64,000 nucleotides of DNA from the NCBI GenBank assembly GCA_963808395.1, contig CAWEFJ010000006.1, forward strand, positions 38,845 through 102,844. The letters are read 5' to 3'. The notes beneath the pieces were generated by a model, which saw only the letters and a list, made by a program, of their open reading frames with translations, was not told the origin of the DNA and searched no databases. Of this stretch, positions 37,303-47,715 are shown piece by piece (the first letter of the stretch is position 1; each line of letters begins with the position of its first letter). The position numbers were made by a program, and so were the translations under genes. This stretch comes from an uncultured delta proteobacterium. Lineage in GTDB: Bacteria > Desulfobacterota > Desulfobaccia > Desulfobaccales > 0-14-0-80-60-11.

Positions 37303-37560
37303 TTAAATTAGAAATTAGGATCGCTGACCACGCGGGTCTTTGGGTAATATCAGAAGTGAGATAAAAAATAGATATGAGGTAGAGATCAGCAGCAATATCG
37401 CGGAAGGCTGGGAGCAAATAGATAGCAGTTATCGGGGATTACTCCGTCGAGAGGCATGAGGATTCCGTGGCGGTGGAGCGAAAGGAAGGGAGAGGGCGAA
37501 GGATTAAGCTCACTTGCCGCTATGGAGCGCAGCGAAGTGGCGATCAGGTGGAGCGCCTTG

Positions 37561-38872
37561 TTAGGGAATACATTTTCTGAGCGTACCCTTTACCCAATCA
37601 GGCATTGACCAAAAGAACAGGTAGAGCAGACCAAAAAAAACGCCCCAGTTAGATAGTTCATCAAGCACAAAACTTACATAACCGCCATACGGTAGATGGT
37701 GTGTAATTTTGATTATCAGTAGATACCATTGCGATAGAAATATGAATGACACAATGACCATAGAACCCAATGAAATATCGCGAATGTAACATTTTCCCCA
37801 TACGACCAGCTGAGGGATGGTGAGTATGAGGAACATGAGTCTGTAATCCCAGTTATTGCCCAGCAGGAATGTTCCCAAATAAATTGCAGTTCCTGCTCTA
37901 AATGCATCGAGATACTCTGCTTCGCTTTGACTTTCTGTTAGAAAGTCATCGCGGAGCAAGGAAGTAAACGCGAACCATAACGCCAACAAAACTATTAGGT
38001 AGGATAAAAACCTTGCATACCATCCTAACGTATGATTGAAACTCATTGCTTTCATCCAAAATACATCTAATCCATAAGACAGGCTTATGCTTCTTGGTGT
38101 TGCATCTCTAATCAATGAAATGTCCGAATAAGTTAGAAATATATAACTAGCGATGAAGGCAACAGAAAATTAAAACATATCTCAAAAACAATGGTCGGAT
38201 TGCTCTAAGTAAAACTGCACACCCAAAAATAGGATATAGTTTCAAGACGAACCCAAGCAAGACAGCTAAGGCAGATAATATGTGCCACCTTTTAATTGCT
38301 ACAACTGATATAGTGACAAGAAAAAACATAAATAAATCAATATTACCCCGCTCGATACCCAATAAAGTGGCTGGAGACAAAACAGCTGCCATAACAAGCA
38401 CGATAATTATATTGCTGGCATGTGGTAATAATAAGCAGATACTAACCATAAATAACAAAATAAAACTAATTCCTATGTATGTTGTATGACTTTGATTAAC
38501 ACCAATTGAATATAAGCTTTGCCAAACTCTGGGGTAATTTAGTCTTCTTTGCCAAGGGTCTCCAGGATTCTCAATCATTGGATCAAACCCTTGTGCGTAT
38601 GATTCTGCGCCGCCGGTAATAACGCGAAGATCAGCAAAATGCGGAGACATTGTGGGGATATTCCATAGCCTCCATGTCCTATCGTAACCGTATAAACTAA
38701 ATAGCAATCCAAAAACCAGCGTTACTAAAACGCAAGCCAATATTACTTTCCTTCTTGATATCCATATTGTTGCCCAAACAATAATTAGATTGATCCCGAT
38801 AAGATGTGGAGATTCGGTTTTCTGTCCGTATAAGACGCCATTGTATCGCGTCTTCCAATGACCATAAATCAT
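37561..38872 (-). CDS. AT-rich polytopic membrane protein, GT-C-like (possible glycosyltransferase or polymerase-type); one frame change near 38125-38150
   Basis: ORFs 38147..38872 and 37561..38115 join. The frame carrying AFIASYIFLTYSDISLIRDATPRS is open across the listed stop, and a TTTT run lies at the junction. The protein has many hydrophobic segments and a loop FADLRVITGGAESYAQGFDPMIENPGDPWQRRLNYPRVWQ. The function call is weak. Confidence 0.55.
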
Positions 38873-39293
38873 GATATATCATTGGCTTGCATCGAGGCTG
38901 CCCCCTTATCACGGTTCTTCGGACCTCTTTGCCCGGAAAAATCCCCCAAAGTTTCTGTTCTTGAAGCTGAATCCTCTGTCGACGCCATGATAGCACAAGT
39001 TTCCTTGGAAAAATATCTTTGCTGTGGAGCTTACTGACCCCAGGCCAGCACTGATCGGTGGTGGTGAGCCGGGGAAAGGGCTGCGGTGAGATACGCATAC
39101 CAGCCCCTTTGAGAAGCAGGATTAAAAAATAGCAGATCACTTGCCAGAGCGACAATTATCCCCAAGCCCATAAAAATTGCGGATATTCCCCGGATATACC
39201 TTCTAACTTTTCGCCGGCTCCGTGGTCTTTACCATTGAAAGCCTGGATTCGATCCTCTTTCCGGAAACCTAGCAAAACACCAGGGAGGGAACC

Positions 39294-40259
39294 ATGTTAT
39301 CTCCGCAGCAAGCCTTAATTGTGGCGGCGTCCTTGTTGCTCTTCTGGGGCGCAGGGCAAGCCGGGGCGGGCCAGGGGGGCCTCTCCGCGGCTGACTCTGA
39401 CTTTCAAAGGGTTAAAACCAGAGTCGCCGAACTGCAAGAGGATATCTCCACCATTAATCTCTTAAACGGACTTAACCTCTCCCAGGACCAGGAGAAGCAA
39501 ATCCTGCAATTGGCCCAGGAGGCCCGCCAGGTCCGGGAACGGGCCACCATCAATTCGCCCTCCCTCCTGGAGGCCATGCGGCAGGCTGAAACCTCCTACG
39601 CCAACCTTAAAGAAGAGATCGAGAAAGGCGCGCCGGCCAGGGGTCAGATTCCCACCCAGGCAGCCCAGGTCAATCATCACCTGAAGGAGTTGCAAGACCA
39701 GGGCAACCGGCAGATGTCCACGGAGTTCAGCGCCCTGGAGGGGAAGCTCAGGGGGGTGCTGAGCCCCGAACAGCTCCAGGTGGTGGAAGATTTCAGCCCC
39801 TGCCTGATCCCTCCGGTGGATTTGCGCTCGCCGGTGCGGGCCGGCCAGGCCGCCTCCAACCAGGGAAGCGTAAACCTGCTGCGGCGGTTGCGGGCGATAC
39901 CCGAGGATAAATGGCAGGCGCGGCGGCGAATGATCGCCCAGAAGATTGTGAATAATATCAATGAAAACCATTACCGGATGACCGAAGCCGAAAAGACCGC
40001 GGCGGAAGCCCGCCTCCTGGCGGTGTTGGACCAGGCGCGGCAGATGTCGGATATGGATTTTGAGCTGGCCAAAGAAAAACTGGCCGCGCAGATTGCGCCC
40101 CCAGACAAAATTAAGAACCTGCGGAATGAAATCGAAGCGCGCCTGCCTCATGCGAGAAGGCCGCAAATGTCCCGGTTGGGACGCTCTTTGCTCAGCGACA
40201 ATATTATTCCCATCCTGGAGCAGCGCCTCGCCAACAACAACCTGGCAGAGGCGCGCTAA
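39294..40259 (+). CDS. secreted helical protein with LTxxQ-like motifs (CpxP/Spy-like periplasmic protein)
   Basis: Signal peptide MLSPQQALIVAASLLLFWGAGQAGA. Motifs LNLSQDQEKQI and LSPEQLQVV. RBS is GGGAGGG. Confidence 0.6.
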   Translation: MLSPQQALIVAASLLLFWGAGQAGAGQGGLSAADSDFQRVKTRVAELQEDISTINLLNGLNLSQDQEKQILQLAQEARQVRERATINSPSLLEAMRQAETSYANLKEEIEKGAPARGQIPTQAAQVNHHLKELQDQGNRQMSTEFSALEGKLRGVLSPEQLQVVEDFSPCLIPPVDLRSPVRAGQAASNQGSVNLLRRLRAIPEDKWQARRRMIAQKIVNNINENHYRMTEAEKTAAEARLLAVLDQARQMSDMDFELAKEKLAAQIAPPDKIKNLRNEIEARLPHARRPQMSRLGRSLLSDNIIPILEQRLANNNLAEAR

Positions 40260-40272
40260 AGGAGAGCCGGTG

Positions 40273-41451
40273 ATGGACCTGAAGCTGATGGAGCCCGGAA
40301 GCCGCCGCGCCTTCCTGGCCTGGACGGGCCGCCTGGGTCTGAGTGCGGCCCTGGCGCCCGTGGCCTGGCAGGCGCTGCAGGTCTTGGGCCTGCTGGCTGG
40401 AGAGCAAGCACAGGCGGCACCCTTACCCCTCCAGCCAGGACCGGCCCCGGCCCGCTATTATACCCGGCTGGAAGGGGGTAAAGTGCAGTGCCAGTTGTGC
40501 CCCCGCCACGAAGTTCTGGCCCCGGGGCAGATGGGCTTTTGCCGCGTCCGGCAGAATCTCGGCGGGGTGATGATGACCCATGCCTATGGTCAGCCGTGTG
40601 TCCTGAACCTCGACCCCATCGGCAAGAATCCCCTGGGCCATTTTTACCCGGAGATGACGGTGCTGGCCCTGGCCCATGCCGGTTGCAACCTGCGCTGCCT
40701 CTATTGCCAAAACTGGCAGTTTTCCCAGAAAAGCCCCACCCAGACGAAAAATATCGTCCCCTTCGATTTCCGGCAAACCGCGGCCAGGATGCAATCCAGG
40801 CGCATGGGCGGGGTAAGTTTCACCTACACCGAAGCTGACTGCGCCCCGGAATTCGCGGGAGATTTCGCGGGATTCTGCGGCCAGTTTGGCCTCCAACGCA
40901 CCCTGTGCACTTCCGGTTACCTGAGAAAACAGCCCTTCCAAGACCTGCTGCGGAACTTCGAGGCGGTGACCATCACCTACAAGGGCGCCACTGATGATTT
41001 TTACCAGCGGGTGGTGGGAGGCAACCTGAATCCGGTCCTGGAATCCATGGTGCTGGCCAAAACCGAGGGCAAGTGGCTGGAGGTGGCCACGCTCATTGTA
41101 CCCACCCTCAATGATAGCCGGGAGGGGTTGACCGCGATGGCCCGCTGGCTCAAGGGCAACCTGGGGGCCGAGACTCCCTGGCATCTGGAGCGGTTCGACC
41201 CCCAGTTTAAACTGATGAACCTGCCACCCACGCCCCAGCAAACCCTGGAAACCGCCAGGCAAATCGGCCTGGATGCCGGCCTGAAGTTCGTATATATCTC
41301 CAACCTGGCCCCGCACCCGGGCAATCACACTTATTGCCCCTCCTGCAGCCGGGTGTTGGTCAAGCGCCTGGGCTTTAAGGTGCTGGAAAATCACCTGGTC
41401 CATGGGGCTTGCCCTTACTGCGGGACCAGGATTCCAGGCGTCTGGGCTTGA
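40273..41451 (+). CDS. AmmeMemoRadiSam-type (AmrS-like) radical SAM enzyme with an N-terminal twin-arginine signal
   Basis: Tat motif SRRAFLAWTGRLGLSAALAPVAW...AQA. AmrS-like N-terminal motif VQCQLCPRHEVLAPGQMGFCRVRQN. Radical SAM CNLRCLYCQNW. C-terminal CPSCSRVLVKRLGFKV...GACPYCGTRIPGVW. Confidence 0.85.
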   Translation: MDLKLMEPGSRRAFLAWTGRLGLSAALAPVAWQALQVLGLLAGEQAQAAPLPLQPGPAPARYYTRLEGGKVQCQLCPRHEVLAPGQMGFCRVRQNLGGVMMTHAYGQPCVLNLDPIGKNPLGHFYPEMTVLALAHAGCNLRCLYCQNWQFSQKSPTQTKNIVPFDFRQTAARMQSRRMGGVSFTYTEADCAPEFAGDFAGFCGQFGLQRTLCTSGYLRKQPFQDLLRNFEAVTITYKGATDDFYQRVVGGNLNPVLESMVLAKTEGKWLEVATLIVPTLNDSREGLTAMARWLKGNLGAETPWHLERFDPQFKLMNLPPTPQQTLETARQIGLDAGLKFVYISNLAPHPGNHTYCPSCSRVLVKRLGFKVLENHLVHGACPYCGTRIPGVWA

Positions 41452-43928
41452 AAGCCGACCTTTCCCCCGGCCGGCAGGCCCTTAGGATTGTCCCGGTCCT
41501 CACCGGGCTGGGGGGGTTTTCGCAGTTTGGCCAGATTCTCACCTTTCGGGAGATCATGGCCCAGTGCCACGGCTCCGAACTTCTGTTTGGCTTGATGCTG
41601 GGGGCGTGGCTGCTCTGGGCCGCGGCGGGCACCGCGCTGGGGGCCTGGTGGGGAGGCGCCCGGAGGGACTCCCAGGGCCGCCGGCCTCTGAAAGTTTTGG
41701 CGCTCAGCGCCCTGGCCGGCGGGCCGGTCCTGGCCGGGCAGATCCTCTGGCTGCGCCTGGCCCCCTGGGGTTCCGCCGCGGTGGCGGGCCAATGGCTCTC
41801 TCCCGGGCAGAGCGCCTGGCTCAGCCTCCTGGCCCCCGCGCCCCTGGCCCTCCTGGCCGGCTGCCAATTCAGCCTGGCGCTCCGGGCCGCGCCCTGGCAA
41901 TCCGTGGGGCCCCTGTTTCGGGCGGAAGCTTGGGGGGCCATGGGGGGCGGTCTGCTAACCGCCCTGGTCCTGGTCCATCTGGGTGGCGCCTTGTCCCTGG
42001 CCCTGGCCATCGGGGCGCTGCTGACAGTTTTGGTCTTCCTACTCCTCCGGATCCAGACTCAGAGACCCTTGGCCATAAGCGGCGGCTTGCTGGCAGTGGT
42101 AATGCTGGCGGCCGCGGCCCTGCCTCTGGACCGCTGGTCTGAAGAGCGCTCTTGGGGCCACCGGCTTCCCGGCCATGCCCTCCTCGAGGTGCAGAACACC
42201 CGGTACGGGCGCCTGGCCCTGCTGCAAGATCAGGCCGGCCAGCAGCTCTCGGTCTTCCAAAACGGCGAATTCCTGGCCGCGGTGAATGAAGCCGATAACA
42301 CCACGGCCCGGCAACTGGCCGCGGTTGCTTGCGGCCAGCATCCCGCCCCCGCCAGCGCCCTGCTCATCGGCGGCCTCCTGAGCCGCTTGCCGGCCGCCAT
42401 GCTGGAACATGGGCTGAAGAGCCTGGAAGTGGCGGAACTCGACCCGGCGGTGGGGCAACTCGCCACCCGGCTTGGTCTGGCGCCGGTTCGGGATCCCAGG
42501 ATGAGGCTGATCTCCGCAGACGGGAGGGCGCTGGTCAAAGCGCACCGCGCCCGCGACCTGGGATCTGGTGGTGGCAGTGCTGCCCGAGCCGGACAGCGCC
42601 CTAACCAACCGCTATTGCACCCGGGAGTTCTTCCGGGAAGTAAAACTAAGGCTCAAGCCCGGCGGGGTGTTTTGCCTGTTCTTGCCCGCCTATGGAGCCA
42701 CGGCTTCATATACCGGCCCCATTCTGGCCCGGCGCACCGGAGCCGTCCTGGCCGCGCTGGACCAGGTTTTCGCAGAGACCCGGGCGGCTCCCCTGGGAGG
42801 ACACCTGCTGGTGGCCAGCGATCGCCCGGGGCAGTGCAGTTTCGATCCGGACGTGCTGGCGGGGCGCATCTTCAAGCGGCCGCAGGCCCGGCCCTATAGC
42901 GAAACCCTGGAAGGGGGGCGGTTAACGCGGCAGGACCTGGGAATGGCCCAATGCCGTCTCTACTTTGAGACTATGCTGGGCGGGGCGCTGGCGCAGGAAC
43001 CCTCCTGGCTGGATGATACCCTGCACCAGCCTTTGCTGGAGAATTTTCAAAAGACTTTGCGGAGTTACCCGGTGAAGGCCAACCGGGATGGCCAGCCGGT
43101 GGAGATCCCTTACAGCTTTATCCTCTCCGGAATGATGGCCCAGGGGAATGAGGCAGCCACGGAAAACTTCGGCTATTGGTATGTGCGCCTCACGGAAGGG
43201 CTCGACTCCCGGACCGCCTCGCTGCCCCTGGCGGCGCTGTTCCTGGTAGTCATGAGCGTGGGCGCCGCCTGGCCCTGGAACCAGAAGCTGGCCGCCAGGC
43301 GCCCGGCGGCTGAGCCTTCCCGGAGCTTTTTCGCCTGGCGCTCCCCGCCTATGCCACCGGCGTCTTCGCCATGACCTTCCTGATAACTCTGCTGGAGATT
43401 TATCAGAATCTGTGCGGTTACGTTTACGTGGACGTGGGCGTGTTTTCGGCCATGTTCATGGGCGGCCTGGCGCTGGGGGCCTTGGCCGCGGAGCATTGGC
43501 GATCTGCGGCCTGGGGCAGGCCGGCGGCGCTGCTGGGCGCCATGATGGTTTTGTGTCTGCTGCCCTCCCTCCTGTTTGGGGGGCTCGCGGCCGGCGGGTA
43601 CATCCGGCCCTTGATGGGGGCCCTGCTCCTGGCCGCGGGTTTTGCTGATGGGGCGATGTTCCTGCTCCTGAGCCGGCAAGGGCCAGGCTGGCTTCCGGGC
43701 GGCCCCGGCCCCTGGGTCTATAGCGCCGATCTGGTGGGGTCCGGGCTGGCGGCTTTCCTGACCGGCGCGCTGCTGCTCCCGGCCCTGGGAATCGCCTGGA
43801 CCCTGGGGCTGACGGCCGTCCTGTTAGCCGTGGCCGCCCTGGCGCTGCCGGCCGGGCGCCGCCAGGATGATCCCCAAGCCCGGGCAAGCCGTGGCCCTGG
43901 CCTTAAAGAGCCGGCAGTAACGAGATGA
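41448..43928 (+). CDS. fused membrane-domain / spermidine-synthase-like protein (two frame changes, ~42560 and ~43330)
   Basis: A possible TTG start at 41448 overlaps the radical SAM stop (TTGA). N-terminal TM block (GFSQFGQILTFREIM...). Central SpeE-like domain (RYGRLALLQD...ALLIGGLLSRLPAAMLEH.LKSLEVAELDPAV...WDLVVAVLPEPDSALTNRYCTREFFREVKLRLKPGGVF). C-terminal TM block. The usual GGGDG box reads GGLLS. Confidence 0.7.
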
Positions 43929-45020: not shown

Positions 45021-47715
45021 CTACTTGGGCAGCGGCCCTCGAGTTATCTTCACCAGATCGGCCGGTCTTACCCACTTGGCAAAGGCCGCCTGGACCTGCT
45101 CGGCAGTCAGCGCCGCATAGTCTTTAGCCGCGGTAATCGGTTCATCCGGCGGCAAGTCCAGAATGGAGCGTTTGATCAACCCCATGGCAATGCTCTGCAA
45201 ACTGGATTCGGACAGGGGGATTCTCCGCAGCAACATCAATTTTGCCTGGCGTAATTCGTCGGGATTTACCTTTTGGGACTGCATCTCCATTAAATTACGC
45301 GCCACGATGCCCTGGACTTTGGCAACATTGTCCGGATCGCAGGCATACTCAATGGCATAGAGGGCCCGGGTCTGATTGGCTTCCAGCTCCACCTCCACGG
45401 AATATACGAGACCGGTTTCTTCCCGCAACTGCTGGTAAAGCCGGGTAGCATAAAAGCCACCTCCCAGGACGTGGTTCCCCAGCGCCAGGGCGTAGTAATC
45501 CGGATTGGACCGCGTCAGTCCCAGGGTTTCCGCCAGGTCGACCTCATCCTGCACCCGGCTGGAATCGGGTACGGCCACCGAGGCAGGGGTGTTGGGGGGT
45601 ACGGGCGGCAGCAGGATATTTGGTTTAGGACCGGAAGCCGTCCATGGTCCAAAGTATTGCTCGATTACCTGTCGGGCCTGCTCGGGGGTCACCTTGCCGA
45701 TAACGATGATCACGGTCTGGTCGGGTCGAAAGACCTTGGAAAAATAGTCTTGGATATTCGCCAAAGTCAACCCGGAGACCGTGGCCGGCGTGGCCTGGCG
45801 CAAGGTCGGGTCGCTTTGGGGATATAAAGCTGCTTTGAGTGCCCGGCTCGCCAGATAATCCGGACTTTGGAGCCTGCCGGCCACGGTGGCGGCTACCTGA
45901 GAGCGCACAATTTTGAAGGCGTCCTCCGGCAGAGCCGGATGGAGTTCATTATCCGCCAGGAGCTGCACCCCGCGCTCGGAAGTGGCCGGACAATGCCTGT
46001 AAAGAAAAAGAGGTTCCGGTGGAGACTTGCGCGGCAATATCATCCAGGGCTTTCTGAAAGGCCAACCGATCCAGGGAGGTGGTGCCGTAGGAAAAAAGCT
46101 GGTCCAGTACCTGAGCAATGCCCTCCTGCCCTTGAGGCTCCTGTAAATCCGGCTGATTTTTAATATGGCCGTAAACGCTGATCGTGTCGCTGATCGATTC
46201 AGGCTGCACCATCAGTTTAATCCCGTTAGGCAAGATGCTCACCACCGGGTGCACGGTGGAGGTGGGAATGGACAAGCGCTCCAGGGAACTCTTGGCCCAT
46301 TCGGGCAGGATCACGTTTTTGCCGGGCTGCAGATTGAAGGATTCTTTGCCGCCAAAGCCTTTGGAGGATATGGGTTGGCCGGAGGCCTGGGGAGTAAGGA
46401 TGGCCACCACCGCATGATTGAGATCCAGGTATTGGCGGGCGACGCGATCGACGTCTTTCACCGTAACCCGGCTAATGGCCTGAACGTCGTCCGCGGGAGA
46501 CTGCCGGCCTTCCACCGCCAGCGCTTGGGACCAGGTCGTTGGCCAGATCGGACACGGAATTTTTTTGTTCTTCCAGTTGGGCCAATTCAAGGTTTTTGGC
46601 AGCTTCCACCAGATCGGCGGGGATACCCTGGGCCACGCTTTTGGCTAAGACTTCTTTGACCTCCTGCAGCAACTTCTGCGGATCGCCGCCCTTGGGGAAG
46701 GCGGCGTGGCATAGGCCAGACCGGCCTCGGGGAGGGGGTTCAAGGAAAAGTCGGTGTTTAAGGCCTGGCCCGCAGCCGCCAGGGCATACAGGTCCCCCCG
46801 TTGACTGGCCAAGACATCGGCCAGCACCTCGGAAGCGGCATAATCAGGGCTGTTATAGCCGGGCAAGCGAAAAGCCACCACGACCAACCCGTAAGGCAAA
46901 TCCGTGTTCATCTCGAACTTTTCGGCCGCTACCGGCTGCAGCTGCACCTCCGGCCGGGGAGGCAGATCTTTCCTGGGAATATCCCCGAATAAGTTTTTGA
47001 CGCTGGCCAGGGTTTTTTGGGGGTCCACATCCCCGGTGATCACGAGAATGGCGTTATTAGGGGCGTACCAGGTATCGTGAAACTTCTGGAGCATGGCGCC
47101 GGTGGTCAGGTCGAAAGAGGCGCGGGTGCCCAGGGCATCGAGGGCATAAGGCGTCCCCTTGAACATGGTCGCCAGGAGTTTGATATAAAAGACATATTCG
47201 GGATTGGAAAGGTCCTGGGCCACCTCCTGCTCAATGGCGCCCCGCTCCTGGTTCCAGAGTTCGTCACTGTCGAGGACGCCGCGCATCCGAATGGCCTCGA
47301 TATGCAAGGGCACATCCAGATCCTCGGCGGGGACGGTAAAGGCGTACTGGGTGACCACCTGCTGGGTATCAGCTTCGAACTCCCCACCCATGGCGGCACT
47401 GATGGCCGCCAGTTGGCCGGCCGAAAGCCCGGGGCTGCCGCGAAACATCATGTGTTCCTGAGCGTGGGCCATTCCCGGGAACCCTTCCGGAGCCTCGTTG
47501 GAGCCCACCAGATAATTGACCATGGTCGTGGCCACGGGAGCGATAGGATCTTGAATAATCACCACACGCAGGCCATTGCTCAAGGTAGCCCGCAAAACGG
47601 CAGCTTGCTTTTCCCCGGCGCCACAGGCTGATAAAGCCGCCAGCGCCAGGATCACCATTACTTTTAGGCCGATGTCCGCCAGCCGGTGAAGGTCCAGTCG
47701 TTTTCCGAATAACAT
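45021..47715 (-). CDS. large two-unit M16 family zinc peptidase lipoprotein (about 3 frame changes)
   Basis: Lipobox LAALSAC. HxxEH in GMAHAQEHMMFRGS. Joined from ORFs 46645..47715, 46472..46672, 45949..46590 and 45021..46118. Confidence 0.8.

What the first reader, a model, noticed from the sequence alone, without database searches (positions are those of the whole stretch)
39294..43928. Orphan Tat-signal AmrS-type radical SAM enzyme coupled to a membrane-embedded spermidine-synthase-like protein, behind a secreted LTxxQ protein
Three co-oriented genes lie here. (i) A signal-peptide protein with CpxP/Spy-like LTxxQ motifs. (ii) A radical SAM enzyme whose N- and C-terminal Cys motifs and CNLRCLYCQNW box fit the AmmeMemoRadiSam (AmrS) family. 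It starts with a near-consensus twin-arginine signal (SRRAFL, hydrophobic stretch, AQA). (iii) A protein of ~820 aa with TM blocks on both sides of a SpeE-like domain in which the GGGDG nucleotide-binding box reads GGLLS. Its candidate TTG start overlaps the radical SAM stop (TTGA), which suggests translational coupling. No AMMECR1 or Memo partner gene is present in this window. An exported radical SAM enzyme is odd because SAM and reductants are cytoplasmic. Two SAM-related folds plus a periplasmic chaperone-like protein, all on a putatively inserted segment, suggest an uncharacterised envelope or membrane modification module.
Basis: partly seen in the sequence, partly recalled or inferred. 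Interest (0 to 1): 0.75.

Follow-up and report, generated by a model that had tools for sequence, protein, structure and literature searches.

The report
Exported radical SAM enzyme gene cassette
Three co-transcribed genes in a sulfate-reducer-like (Desulfobaccales) genome form a cassette conserved across several phyla, whose radical SAM enzyme, helical partner protein and membrane protein all appear to work outside the cytoplasm, a location not described for this cytoplasm-dependent chemistry in the literature I could search.

Summary
Window 39294-43928 carries three co-oriented genes.

- **GI:** a 321-aa, Sec-signal, all-helical protein.
- **AmrS:** a 392-aa AmrS-type radical SAM enzyme (TIGR04337, 298.6 bits against a cutoff of 220) with an N-terminal SRRAFL twin-arginine leader.
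- **SPE:** an 819-aa membrane protein with a spermidine-synthase-like domain. Its TTG start overlaps the radical SAM stop codon.

- SPE is broken in this window by three single-base indels. It is intact in 97%-identical strains, so assembly error is likely.
- The cassette is not on the inserted segment. The low-GC island next to it is.
- GI is not a detectable CpxP/Spy relative. It belongs to an unannotated family of about 1155 representative clusters.

New evidence:
- The RRxF[L/I] leader is conserved in 96 of 120 homologs.
- GI occurs only beside Tat-type AmrS and never in the same locus as Memo/AMMECR1.
- SPE is the commonest AmrS neighbour (37 of 87 loci).
- SPE is built as [6TM]-TM-[domain]-TM-[6TM], with the domain predicted periplasmic and the aminopropyltransferase catalytic residues lost.
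- Related AmrS loci carry heme-c motifs with ResB/CcsA, NosR/NapH-like proteins, DsbD-like proteins, and signal-peptide-bearing Memo-AMMECR1 fusions.

Best reading: an envelope-located radical SAM module, with GI as the probable protein partner or substrate. Its function has not been tested.

The parts
39196..39293 (+). Conserved upstream leader of the cassette. Homology with relatives L088 and L092 begins here, and the promoter or 5' UTR is presumed to lie in it.
   Evidence: The blastn boundary is at 39196 for both L092 and L088. No sigma-70 consensus was found.
39294..40259 (+). GI: a 321-aa secreted all-helical protein from an unannotated family.
   Evidence: ORF. No Pfam hit. 57 close homologs and 1155 representative clusters. 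AF2 model with pLDDT 88. No PDB fold match.
39294..39365 (+). GI signal peptide, residues 1 to about 24 (Sec type, with AGQA/GA at its end).
   Evidence: All 35 aligned homologs have an N-terminal hydrophobic segment ending in a small-residue site. In the AF2 model, helix 4-19 is followed by a disordered stretch at 21-29.
39798..39851 (+). Invariant GI loop, residues 169-186 (SPCLIPPvDLrsPVRAGQA). It is the candidate site recognised or modified by the radical SAM enzyme.
   Evidence: C170, P173, P174, P180, R182 and G184 are invariant. This is the only low-confidence internal stretch of the model, with pLDDT about 58-60.
40273..41451 (+). AmrS-type radical SAM enzyme, 392 aa.
   Evidence: TIGR04337 scores 298.6 bits against a cutoff of 220. 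AF2 pLDDT is 89.8. The nearest solved fold is PFL-activating enzyme 3cb8, E 8e-15.
40273..40416 (+). Twin-arginine (Tat-type) leader, residues 1-48. The SRRAFL motif is at residues 10-15 and AQA at 46-48.
   Evidence: RR and F are conserved in 96 of 120 homologs, and 81 of those 96 have an AxA site. In the model it forms a lone helix (11-37) followed by a disordered linker (38-56), detached from the core. The TIGR04337 model begins at residue 61.
40684..40707 (+). CX3CX2C radical SAM cluster motif (CNLRCLYC, C138, C142, C145).
   Evidence: These columns are invariant. The sequence was read directly.
41448..42540 (+). SPE segment A (frame 0). It holds the TTG start overlapping the radical SAM stop, the first 6-TM repeat (about 41466-42065), TM7 (about 42069-42128) and the first half of the SpeE-like domain, including GGLLS.
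   Evidence: NF037959 scores 45.5 bits against a cutoff of 40.
42541..42541 (+). A 1-nt insertion relative to L088, L001 and L092. It shifts SPE into frame 1.
   Evidence: DNA alignments.
42542..43312 (+). SPE segment B (frame 1). It holds the second half of the SpeE-like domain (WDLVVAVLPEPDS...) and TM8 (about 43210-43278).
   Evidence: It is 90% identical at the amino-acid level to L001 and has no stop codon in this frame.
43312..43313 (+). A 1-nt deletion relative to the relatives. It returns SPE to frame 0.
43313..43928 (+). SPE segment C (frame 0). It holds the second 6-TM repeat (about 43314-43868). A third 1-nt deletion at about 43871 alters the last ~15 residues, and the stop codon used by the relatives lies at about 43911-43913.

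Best explanation
The three genes form one conserved operon-like cassette that encodes a radical SAM system working on the outer face of the cytoplasmic membrane.

Shown:
- The gene order and tight spacing are conserved across phyla.
- The enzyme belongs to the AmrS family.
- The twin-arginine leader is conserved.
- GI carries a signal peptide and is an unannotated, all-helical protein.
- SPE is built as [6TM]-TM7-[SpeE-like domain]-TM8-[6TM].
- SPE has lost the residues specific to aminopropyltransferases.

Inferred:
1. AmrS folds and receives its Fe-S clusters in the cytoplasm. It is then exported, or anchored facing outward, through the Tat pathway.
2. GI is exported unfolded through Sec. 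In the periplasm it meets AmrS, which has a fold like pyruvate formate-lyase activating enzyme, an enzyme that acts on a protein loop. AmrS would then act on GI's invariant, flexible Cys170...Pro-x-Arg-x-Gly184 loop, by H-atom abstraction or by modifying the Cys or Gly.
3. GI takes the place that signal-peptide-bearing Memo-AMMECR1 fusions hold in sister systems.
4. SPE keeps the ribose- and adenine-binding acidic residues of the AdoMet fold, and its soluble domain faces the periplasm. It would serve the enzyme rather than make polyamines. The most likely service is bringing AdoMet across the membrane and presenting it, or removing 5'-deoxyadenosine and methionine. Translational coupling would keep SPE matched in amount to AmrS.

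The final product and the physiological role are unknown.
For: **Cassette conservation**
- GI-AmrS-SPE occurs in the same order in L001, L002, L003, L004/5, L088, L091 and L092-95, with different flanking genes.
- It also occurs in Planctomycetota and Verrucomicrobia loci L008 and L010.
- In the less biased set of 80 loci (the best matches to the Tat-AmrS alignment), GI lies next to 9 of 45 Tat-type AmrS and 0 of 35 others (Fisher p = 0.004).
- GI and Memo/AMMECR1 never share a locus.
- SPE is the most frequent AmrS neighbour, in 37 of 87 loci.

**Evidence for export**
- The leader logo is [DSTN]-R-R-x-F(90/96)-[LI](86/96), and 81 of 96 have an AxA site.
- R11 is invariant, and R12 and F14 are at least 90% conserved.
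- The leader is a detached helix with a disordered linker in the AF2 model.
- No later start codon could preserve the conserved N-terminal Cys motif.

**Independent support from sister loci**
- Nine Chloroflexota AmrS carry a CxxCH heme-c motif after the Tat leader. In L011, L026, L027 and L031, ResB/CcsA-type genes lie directly upstream; the ResB assignment rests on Pfam for L027, the CcsA assignment on reading the sequence.
- Memo-AMMECR1 fusions beside AmrS have signal peptides or membrane anchors.
- Recurrent neighbours are NosR/NapH-like FMN_bind+Fer4 proteins, DsbD_2 proteins and Tat-signal DUF362 proteins.

**SPE topology**
- The two 6-TM repeats are homologous (hhalign probability 98.4%, E 1e-14).
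- Averaged over 31 homologs, K/R-rich segments (N-terminus, L2-3, L6-7, L8-9, L10-11; the C-terminal GRRQ in the window protein) all fall on one side, which places the soluble domain on the other side.

**SPE chemistry**
- GGGDGG is replaced by GGLLSR and DSSDP by VLPEP, while E(L)D and D(G)R are kept.
- Spermidine synthase equivalog models score 27-57 bits against cutoffs of 250-472.

**GI as a partner or substrate**
- The invariant loop is the one flexible internal region of a confident model.
- L007 and L009 have two GI paralogs beside one AmrS.
- Family members with 2-3 tandem GI domains exist, and one is fused to an AhpC/TSA-redoxin domain.
- The nearest solved AmrS fold is PFL-AE crystallised with its peptide substrate.
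Against: - No experiment supports any step, and no export predictor (TatP, SignalP) was available.
- The Pfam TAT_signal model did not hit the leader at E <= 1.
- AdoMet and a low-potential reductant are not known to be available in the periplasm.
- GI-type cassettes contain no obvious electron-donor gene.
- SPE also sits next to AmrS proteins that have no N-terminal extension (9 of 25 such loci). If those enzymes are cytoplasmic, that fits poorly with a purely periplasmic service role.
- The SPE topology rests on hydropathy and the positive-inside rule only, because no structure model could be made.
- The GI-substrate idea rests on context and on loop conservation.
- One GI homolog stands alone without an AmrS within 8 kb (L089).
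- In this window SPE is frameshifted, so if the sequence is correct the cassette may be defective here.
Confidence: 0.55

Rival explanations
1. The system is membrane-associated but cytoplasmic. The RR-containing N-terminal helix is only a membrane anchor, or a vestigial or regulatory peptide. AmrS stays on the cytoplasmic face, where AdoMet and ferredoxin or flavodoxin are available. There it works with the cytoplasmic loops of SPE on a membrane lipid or isoprenoid. GI is a periplasmic accessory protein, or merely co-regulated.
For: - Every characterised radical SAM enzyme I know of needs cytoplasmic AdoMet and a cytoplasmic reductant (established knowledge).
- Some sister AmrS proteins have plain N-terminal TM helices whose flanking charges are ambiguous or favour N-out/C-in, for example L040 (FICRRERSFR).
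- SPE also accompanies AmrS proteins that have no leader.
- The Pfam TAT_signal model gave no hit.
- From memory, Burroughs et al. 2019 (J Biol Chem 294:10211, not held in the library) linked Memo-AMMECR1-rSAM contexts to isoprenoid or nucleotide-base modification.
Against: - A simple anchor would not need an invariant RR-x-F-[LI] motif followed by an AxA site.
- The partner proteins (GI and the Memo-AMMECR1 fusions) carry export signals.
- The CxxCH insert with adjacent ResB/CcsA-type genes in Chloroflexota members implies that the segment after the leader is outside.
- The positive-inside analysis places the soluble domain of SPE outside.
Confidence: 0.22
2. This is an ordinary AmmeMemoRadiSam system whose AMMECR1 and Memo partner genes lie elsewhere in the genome. 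GI and SPE are unrelated neighbours.
For: - The enzyme passes the TIGR04337 cutoff, and NCBI names cluster mates at >=90% identity 'AmmeMemoRadiSam system radical SAM enzyme'.
- Only 64 kb of a contig of at least 226 kb was available.
Against: - GI-AmrS adjacency recurs across phyla with unrelated flanks, and SPE overlaps the AmrS stop codon.
- GI is found only beside Tat-type AmrS (p = 0.004).
- No GI-containing locus has Memo or AMMECR1 within about 7-10 kb of AmrS, whereas 17 other loci do.
- The window enzyme is the most divergent of those scored: 298.6 bits, against 356-640 bits for enzymes that have Memo/AMMECR1 next to them.
Confidence: 0.1
3. SPE is a genuine membrane-bound polyamine aminopropyltransferase, and the cassette makes or exports a polyamine.
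For: - Pfam Spermine_synth and NF037959 hits are above their cutoffs.
- The closest solved sequences are spermidine synthases, E 1e-6.
Against: - The dcAdoMet-specific Asp of GGGDG is absent across the whole SPE family. The catalytic Asp of D-S-S-D-P is absent in the window's clade and not conserved across the family.
- All spermidine synthase equivalog models fall far below their cutoffs.
- The domain is predicted to face the periplasm.
Confidence: 0.03
4. In this particular genome the cassette is decaying. The three indels in SPE are real mutations, and the module no longer works.
For: - All three indels fall within the 2.5-kb SPE gene. None falls in GI, AmrS, the RNase II gene or the aldo/keto reductase gene.
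Against: - The shifted 770-nt segment has no stop codon in its proper frame and remains 90% identical to relatives at the protein level.
- The +1 and -1 indels compensate each other.
- A second gene, the M16 peptidase, is also split in this window but is intact (897 aa) in strains 96-97% identical. That pattern is typical of consensus errors in long-read assemblies.
Confidence: 0.15

Closest known systems
AmmeMemoRadiSam system (AMMECR1 + Memo + radical SAM enzyme AmrS; TIGR04335/04336/04337), function unknown
   Same: - The radical SAM enzyme passes the TIGR04337 cutoff.
- It shares the CX3CX2C box and the N-terminal CxxC...C and C-terminal CxxC...CxxC motifs.
- SPE-like membrane proteins also flank bona fide Memo-AMMECR1-AmrS loci.
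   Different: - No AMMECR1 or Memo gene lies in the window or in any GI-type locus.
- The partner is instead an unannotated secreted helical protein.
- The enzyme carries a 48-60-aa Tat-type leader that canonical members lack (L086, L082).
- It has the lowest TIGR04337 score among the members tested.
Pyruvate formate-lyase activating enzyme and other glycyl-radical enzyme activases
   Same: - PFL-AE is the closest solved structure (3cb8: TM 0.81 on the target, E 8e-15) and the closest solved sequence (3c8f: E 6e-16).
- These are small radical SAM enzymes that act on a loop of a protein substrate.
   Different: - Sequence identity is only 17-19%.
- AmrS has extra N- and C-terminal Cys-rich modules.
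- No glycyl-radical enzyme gene is nearby.
- The candidate substrate loop (PVRAGQA) does not match the RVxG[FWY] fingerprint.
- The predicted location is extracytoplasmic.
Fused MFS/spermidine synthase (NF037959) and membrane-anchored SpeE (PRK03612)
   Same: - The HMM score is above the NF037959 cutoff: 45.5 bits for the window fragment and 63.6 bits for the intact ortholog.
- The domain has the class-I AdoMet-binding fold with the ribose-binding Glu and adenine-binding Asp conserved.
   Different: - The residues specific to aminopropyltransferases are lost.
- It falls far below the equivalog cutoffs.
- The domain is inserted between two homologous 6-TM repeats through two extra TM helices, and is predicted to face the periplasm.
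- Pfam detects no MFS family.
Tat-exported Fe-S or other cofactor-containing proteins (for example hydrogenase small subunits, Rieske proteins, NapG/NrfC-type ferredoxins)
   Same: - It has an S-R-R-x-F-L motif, a moderately hydrophobic h-region and an AxA site.
- The passenger protein needs cytoplasmic Fe-S cluster insertion before export (established knowledge of the Tat pathway).
   Different: - The passenger is a radical SAM enzyme. Six phrase searches of the literature library found no described exported example.
- The leader is long, at about 48 aa.
CpxP/Spy/ZraP periplasmic LTxxQ proteins
   Same: - GI is periplasmic and all-helical.
- It has two L[ST]xxQ motifs whose Gln is invariant.
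   Different: - There is no Pfam hit, and the Spy model scores 17 bits against a cutoff of 174.
- GI is about twice the length of those proteins.
- Foldseek finds no similarity to any PDB entry.
- The hallmark of GI is a Cys/Pro/Arg/Gly loop that CpxP/Spy proteins lack.

Membership tests
AmmeMemoRadiSam radical SAM enzyme (TIGR04337) | HMM score above the curated cutoff | tested here: met
   298.6 bits against a cutoff of 220, covering residues 61-392.
AmmeMemoRadiSam radical SAM enzyme (TIGR04337) | CX3CX2C AdoMet-cluster motif plus the family's N- and C-terminal Cys motifs | tested here: met
   C138, C142, C145, C73, C76, C90, C355, C358, C380 and C383 are invariant in 34 sequences.
AmmeMemoRadiSam radical SAM enzyme (TIGR04337) | Partnership with AMMECR1-family and Memo-family genes (adjacent, nearby or fused) | tested here: not met
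   Neither is found in the 64-kb window, nor within about 7-10 kb in any GI-type locus. The rest of the genome could not be examined.
Tat (twin-arginine) substrate | Consensus motif [ST]-R-R-x-F-L-K near the N-terminus | tested here: met
   S-R-R-A-F-L-A at residues 10-16. RR, F and L/I are conserved in 96 of 120 homologs.
Tat (twin-arginine) substrate | Moderately hydrophobic h-region followed by a signal-peptidase site | tested here: met
   The maximum 12-residue Kyte-Doolittle hydropathy has a median of 1.7. An AxA site lies 12-45 residues after RR in 81 of 96 homologs, and the window has AQA at 46-48.
Tat (twin-arginine) substrate | Match to a curated Tat-signal profile (Pfam PF10518) | tested here: not met
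   No Pfam family hit the 60-aa leader at E <= 1. The profile is short and insensitive, so this weighs little.
Tat (twin-arginine) substrate | Tat-dependent export shown experimentally or by a dedicated predictor | not testable with these tools
   TatP, SignalP and DeepTMHMM were not available. No tat genes lie in the window, which is uninformative.
Fused MFS/spermidine synthase (NF037959) | HMM score above the curated cutoff | tested here: met
   45.5 bits for the window fragment and 63.6 bits for the intact ortholog L092, against a cutoff of 40.
Fused MFS/spermidine synthase (NF037959) | Uninterrupted reading frame | tested here: not met
   Three single-nt indels are present in the window. 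The gene is intact (813-819 aa) in L001, L088 and L092-95.
Spermidine synthase / polyamine aminopropyltransferase (SpeE) | GGGDG dcAdoMet loop and the catalytic Asp of D-[ST]-[ST]-D-P | tested here: not met
   The window reads GGLLS and VLPEP. The GGGDG Asp is absent in all 31 aligned SPE homologs, and the catalytic Asp is not conserved among them.
Spermidine synthase / polyamine aminopropyltransferase (SpeE) | Equivalog HMM cutoffs (PRK03612, TIGR00417, PRK00811) | tested here: not met
   27-57 bits against a cutoff of 472 for PRK03612. No TIGR00417 or PRK00811 hit was reported for the window's clade.
CpxP/Spy LTxxQ family | Profile match (Pfam LTXXQ / NCBIfam Spy or CpxP) | tested here: not met
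   No Pfam hit. The Spy model NF007769 scores 17.2 bits against a cutoff of 174.
CpxP/Spy LTxxQ family | Two LTxxQ motifs | tested here: met
   LSQDQ at 62-66 and LSPEQ at 156-160, with Q66 and Q160 invariant.
CpxP/Spy LTxxQ family | Spy/CpxP-like helical hairpin fold | tested here: not met
   A Foldseek search of the pLDDT-88 model against the PDB gave a best E of 0.35, and no Spy or CpxP entry was listed among the 50 matches shown.

The most novel reading that the evidence does not exclude
A widespread, undescribed class of radical SAM systems operates outside the cytoplasm. AmrS-family enzymes would be exported by the Tat pathway with their clusters in place. They would receive electrons through lineage-specific conduits: a heme-c insert, NosR/NapH-like proteins, DsbD-like proteins, or something still unknown in the GI type. 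They would be supplied with AdoMet by a dedicated 6+6-TM transporter-like protein that carries a periplasmic AdoMet-fold domain. In the Desulfobaccales cassette, the enzyme would post-translationally modify, or generate a radical on, the invariant loop of a new secreted protein family (GI).
Probability: 0.35. Interest if true: 0.9.

Novelty: new variant of a known kind. Interest (0 to 1): 0.78.

Why it matters
Radical SAM chemistry is taken to be confined to the cytoplasm. It consumes AdoMet, needs a very low-potential electron, and depends on an oxygen-labile cluster.

A Tat-targeted radical SAM enzyme is conserved here across Desulfobacterota, Planctomycetota, Verrucomicrobiota, Chloroflexota, Omnitrophota, candidate phyla and some archaea. 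If it really works outside the cytoplasm, AdoMet and reducing power must be delivered across the membrane, which opens a new compartment for this enzyme superfamily.

It also bears on the long-standing puzzle of what the AMMECR1/Memo/AmrS system does. Human AMMECR1 and MEMO1 are disease-linked, and their biochemistry is unresolved. The sister systems found here place Memo-AMMECR1 fusions behind signal peptides. They also show that a different secreted protein can take their place next to the same enzyme. This yields concrete, testable substrate candidates and a recurrent membrane partner (SPE).

Two gene products here have no informative annotation. GI has no family assignment in any library tested. 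SPE has a misleading family name.

Tried and rejected
1. **CpxP/Spy relationship of GI.** Rejected: no profile match and no fold match.
2. **Cassette on an inserted island.** Rejected: relatives keep the block 39196-43913 with different flanks. The low-GC island is the neighbouring 37.5-39.2 kb stretch.
3. **Mis-start explanation for the Tat leader.** Rejected on three grounds: a Shine-Dalgarno sequence sits at the right distance, the leader is conserved at the protein level, and the next Met lies inside the conserved core.
4. **SPE as a real spermidine synthase.** Rejected on motif loss and sub-threshold equivalog scores.
5. **Homolog search with the N-terminal half of SPE.** It returned nothing, probably because low-complexity TM words saturated the candidate list. 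As a result no SPE structure could be predicted under the tool's input rules.
7. **Exact look-up of the window's own GI contig.** It failed.
8. **Literature.**
   - No paper was found on exported or periplasmic radical SAM enzymes, on Tat-AmrS, or on AmrS with spermidine-synthase-like partners.
   - The one relevant analysis of Memo-AMMECR1-rSAM contexts (Burroughs et al. 2019, J Biol Chem) is not held. I could not check whether it already noted the SPE association.
9. **Promoter and terminator scan.** It gave nothing above chance.
10. **Tat machinery genes.** None were found in the window, which is uninformative.

Full report
**1. What is in the sequence**

Between 39294 and 43928 on the + strand lie three tightly packed genes.

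*GI (39294-40259, 321 aa)*
- It starts with a hydrophobic signal-like segment (MLSPQQALIVAASLLLFWGAGQAGA/G).
- The rest of the protein is rich in Glu, Gln, Arg and Leu.

*Radical SAM gene (AmrS)*
- A Shine-Dalgarno sequence (AGGAG) follows 13 nt after the GI stop, and the ATG is at 40273.
- The 392-aa product scores 298.6 bits on TIGR04337 (AmmeMemoRadiSam system radical SAM enzyme, cutoff 220).
- The model starts only at residue 61. This leaves an N-terminal extension, MDLKLMEPGSRRAFLAWTGRLGLSAALAPVAWQALQVLGLLAGEQAQA/AP.

*SPE*
- A TTG at 41448 overlaps the TGA stop of the radical SAM gene (cTTGA).
- As it stands in the window, SPE is split over three reading frames.
- DNA alignment with three relatives that have intact genes (L088, L001, L092, at 92-97% nt identity) shows three differences in the window: an extra base at about 42541, a missing base at 43312 and a missing base at about 43871.
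- Correcting these gives an 819-aa protein.
- The strains closest to the window (L092-L095) carry an intact 819-aa gene with the same 4-nt overlap. They also carry an intact 897-aa M16 peptidase, which is likewise split in the window.
- The out-of-frame middle segment has no stop codon in its proper frame and is 90% identical to relatives at the protein level.
- I therefore consider assembly error more likely than decay. Only the reads can settle it.

**2. Organism and genomic setting**

- Cluster mates of the window proteins at >=90% identity are named as coming from Desulfobaccales MAGs. NCBI already calls the enzyme an AmmeMemoRadiSam radical SAM enzyme.
- The gene order M24 peptidase, RNase II, [variable], GI, AmrS, SPE, [variable], aldo/keto reductase is shared with relative L088, and the part from GI onward with L092.
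- Homology with these relatives starts at 39196 and ends at 43913.
- The material upstream differs in every strain:
  - the window has a 38.6%-GC island with two membrane ORFs;
  - L092 has a Dam-type methyltransferase and an IS1-like gene;
  - L088 has an acetyl-CoA synthetase-like gene and a LuxR regulator.
- The cassette is therefore the stable unit, and its flanks are the insertion hotspots.

**3. The Tat-like leader is real and under selection**

- Of the 120 best homologs of the enzyme (2234 hits at E <= 1e-10), 96 carry RRxF[L/I] within their first 45-50 residues. Most of the remainder are truncated.
- In a 34-sequence alignment spanning 42-93% identity, R11 is invariant, and R12 and F14 are at least 90% conserved. 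The surrounding leader is otherwise variable in sequence and length.
- The logo is [DSTN]-R-R-x-F-[LI]. Among the 96 homologs, 81 have an AxA site 12-45 residues downstream. The h-region is moderately hydrophobic.
- The AF2 model (pLDDT 89.8) shows the leader as a lone helix (11-37) tied to a confident core (57-390) by a disordered linker.
- The Pfam TAT_signal profile did not match. I record this as a weak negative.
- No downstream start could give a protein that keeps the invariant N-terminal CxxC...C motif. The 'mis-start' refutation therefore fails.

**4. The cassette is conserved, and GI is specific to Tat-type enzymes**

- Look-ups of six homologs at 46-93% identity showed a Pfam-less gene of about 290-345 aa immediately upstream in five of them. 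A 629-832-aa Spermine_synth-like membrane protein lay immediately downstream in five, each time in different surroundings.
- A pattern scan of one genome per GTDB species returned 80 loci. I called ORFs in these and clustered the neighbours.
- The commonest neighbour family is SPE (37 of 87 loci). GI follows in 11 loci by clustering, or 19 by tblastn across the 90 loci then held, including look-up loci.

| AmrS N-terminus | Loci | With GI | With SPE | With Memo-AMMECR1 | Other neighbours |
|---|---|---|---|---|---|
| Tat-type | 55 | 19 | 22 | 4 | DUF362 6, NosR/NapH-like 2 |
| Plain TM helix or signal peptide | 9 | 0 | 7 | 4 | DsbD_2 6, NosR/NapH-like 1 |
| No extension | 25 | 0 | 9 | 9 | NosR/NapH-like 7, DUF362 1 |

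  One further locus was typed 'Tat?' (with SPE).
- In the less biased 80-locus set, GI lies next to 9 of 45 Tat-type enzymes and 0 of 35 others (p = 0.004).
- GI and Memo/AMMECR1 never share a locus.
- Starting instead from GI homologs gave three contexts:
  - L091 (Planctomycetes) has GI, AmrS and SPE, with a restriction-modification insertion between AmrS and SPE.
  - L090 has GI followed by a Tat-type AmrS at the contig end.
  - L089 has GI alone.

**5. GI is a new family**

- Pfam gives no hit. NCBIfam gives only a 17-bit match to Spy, whose cutoff is 174.
- A profile of 35 homologs finds 1155 representative clusters at E <= 1e-3 among 1.84 billion proteins, and 545 at E <= 1e-30. Some have two or three tandem GI domains.
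- Nine of ten long members tested have no Pfam domain. The tenth is fused to an AhpC/TSA-redoxin domain.
- Invariant positions include N55, L56, N58, L60, Q66, Q160, C170, P173, P174, P180, R182, G184, F256, E257 and K260.
- The AF2 model is confident (pLDDT 88, pTM 0.72) and all-helical. The exception is the loop at about 167-189 that carries the PCLIPP...PVRAGQA signature, where pLDDT falls to about 58-60.
- Foldseek finds nothing in the PDB, with a best E of 0.35.
They do not make GI a CpxP/Spy protein.

**6. SPE**

- The intact ortholog passes NF037959 (63.6 bits against a cutoff of 40). A relative (L088) passes Pfam Spermine_synth. Every spermidine synthase equivalog model is failed by a wide margin.
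- Against solved spermidine synthases (best E 1e-6), the alignment shows these changes:
  - GGGDGG becomes GGLLSR;
  - D-S-S-D-P becomes V-L-P-E-P;
  - the ribose-binding Glu (VAELDP) and the adenine-binding Asp (SADGR) are kept.
- None of 31 aligned AmrS-associated SPE proteins has the dcAdoMet-specific Asp of GGGDG.
- Residues 7-206 and 623-807 are homologous 6-TM repeats (hhalign probability 98.4%, E 1e-14).
- One extra TM helix follows the first repeat, and one precedes the second.
- Averaged over 31 homologs, the N-terminus, L2-3, L6-7, L8-9 and L10-11 are K/R-rich and acid-poor. The window's C-terminal tail begins GRRQ. All of these fall on one side if each repeat has six helices.
- This places the 355-residue AdoMet-fold domain on the opposite, periplasmic side. 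It is a prediction from hydropathy only.

**7. Sister systems point the same way**

- In Omnitrophota, CPR, Anaerolineae and other loci, the neighbouring Memo-AMMECR1 fusion begins with a signal peptide or membrane anchor. Pfam confirmed the fusion in L049, with Memo at 27-290 and AMMECR1 at 322-487.
- Nine Chloroflexota enzymes have a Tat-type leader followed by a conserved CxxCH...YCH[IV]PH insert. In L011, L026, L027 and L031, ResB- and CcsA-type cytochrome c maturation genes lie directly upstream; the ResB assignment rests on Pfam for L027 and the CcsA assignment on reading the sequence.
- Covalent heme attachment by that system occurs on the outer face of the membrane (established knowledge).
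- Other recurrent neighbours are FMN_bind+Fer4_5 proteins of the NosR/NapH type, DsbD_2 proteins and Tat-signal DUF362 proteins. The first two kinds are known to carry reducing equivalents across the membrane.
- GI-type cassettes contain none of these. Their electron source is unexplained.

**8. Mechanism proposed, and its status**

*Shown*
- The family assignments.
- Conservation of the leader.
- Conservation and specificity of the cassette.
- The repeat architecture of SPE and its motif loss.
- The GI fold class and its conserved flexible loop.

*Inferred*
- AmrS is exported through the Tat pathway.
- AmrS meets GI in the periplasm.
- AmrS acts on the GI loop. This follows from its PFL-AE-like fold (3cb8, E 8e-15, TM 0.81 on the target), from the presence of duplicated GI paralogs and tandem GI domains, and from the loop's conservation.
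- SPE serves the enzyme, by supplying AdoMet or removing its products, rather than making polyamines.

I put about 0.55 on the envelope-module reading as a whole. The specific GI-substrate and SPE-supply steps are less certain. The main rival, at about 0.2, keeps the enzyme on the cytoplasmic face as a membrane-anchored protein.

**9. Comparison with known systems, and novelty**

- The enzyme is a member of the AmrS family by its profile score and motifs. It fails the system-level criterion, because there is no AMMECR1 or Memo partner nearby.
- NCBI's names for two of the three genes exist but say nothing about function. The SPE name is misleading.
- Searches of the held literature found no description of an exported radical SAM enzyme, of Tat-AmrS, or of AmrS with GI or SPE.
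- The one paper that analysed Memo-AMMECR1-rSAM gene contexts (Burroughs et al. 2019) could not be read. From memory, its abstract links those contexts to nucleotide-base and isoprenoid modification. It may already mention membrane partners.
- I classify the finding as a new variant of a known kind, with high interest because of the implied compartment.

Noticed in passing
window 37500-39195: A low-GC island sits between the RNase II gene and the cassette. GC is 38.6% at 38-39 kb, against roughly 60% for most of the window. It holds two minus-strand multi-TM ORFs (37561-38115 and 38147-38872) with no Pfam hit, which may be one gene split in two. Relatives carry unrelated genes at this position, so it is a strain-variable insertion hotspot.
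   Followed up: partly
window 45021-47715 (- strand): An M16-family peptidase is split into three overlapping ORFs (46645-47715, 45949-46590, 45021-46118). Strains 96-97% identical have a single 897-aa gene here. Together with the SPE indels, this suggests consensus errors in the assembly.
   Followed up: partly
L011, L014, L023, L025, L026, L027, L031, L035, L046 (Chloroflexota loci): These AmrS-family enzymes have a Tat-type leader followed by a conserved CxxCH...YCH[IV]PH insert. In L011, L026, L027 and L031, ResB/CcsA-type cytochrome c maturation genes lie directly upstream. This looks like a heme-c-bearing radical SAM enzyme.
   Followed up: partly
L038, L040, L041, L049, L052, L054, L067 and also L016, L026, L027, L068: Memo-AMMECR1 fusion proteins (490-563 aa) lie next to AmrS and begin with signal peptides or TM anchors. 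This implies that whole AmmeMemoRadiSam systems may be extracytoplasmic in Omnitrophota, CPR bacteria and Anaerolineae.
   Followed up: partly
L020, L034, L037, L041-L043, L049, L053 (NosR/NapH-like); L024, L038, L040, L052, L053, L067 (DsbD_2); L015, L016, L033, L051, L056, L074 (DUF362): Three kinds of neighbour recur beside AmrS: FMN_bind+Fer4_5 membrane proteins, DsbD_2 proteins and DUF362 proteins (the one read, in L016, carries a Tat signal). The first two are candidate transmembrane electron-supply modules. None occurs in GI-type cassettes.
   Followed up: partly
P0284 (494 aa, from the GI family search): A GI domain (residues 30-321) is fused to a C-terminal AhpC/TSA-redoxin (thioredoxin-like) domain. 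This hints that the invariant Cys of GI takes part in thiol redox chemistry.
   Followed up: no
SPE family in general (for example L092 7176-9635): The so-called 'fused MFS/spermidine synthase' architecture is two homologous 6-TM repeats separated by TM-domain-TM. If membrane-anchored SpeE proteins of the PRK03612 type share this layout, their catalytic domain might also face outward, which would question their annotation as polyamine synthases.
   Followed up: no
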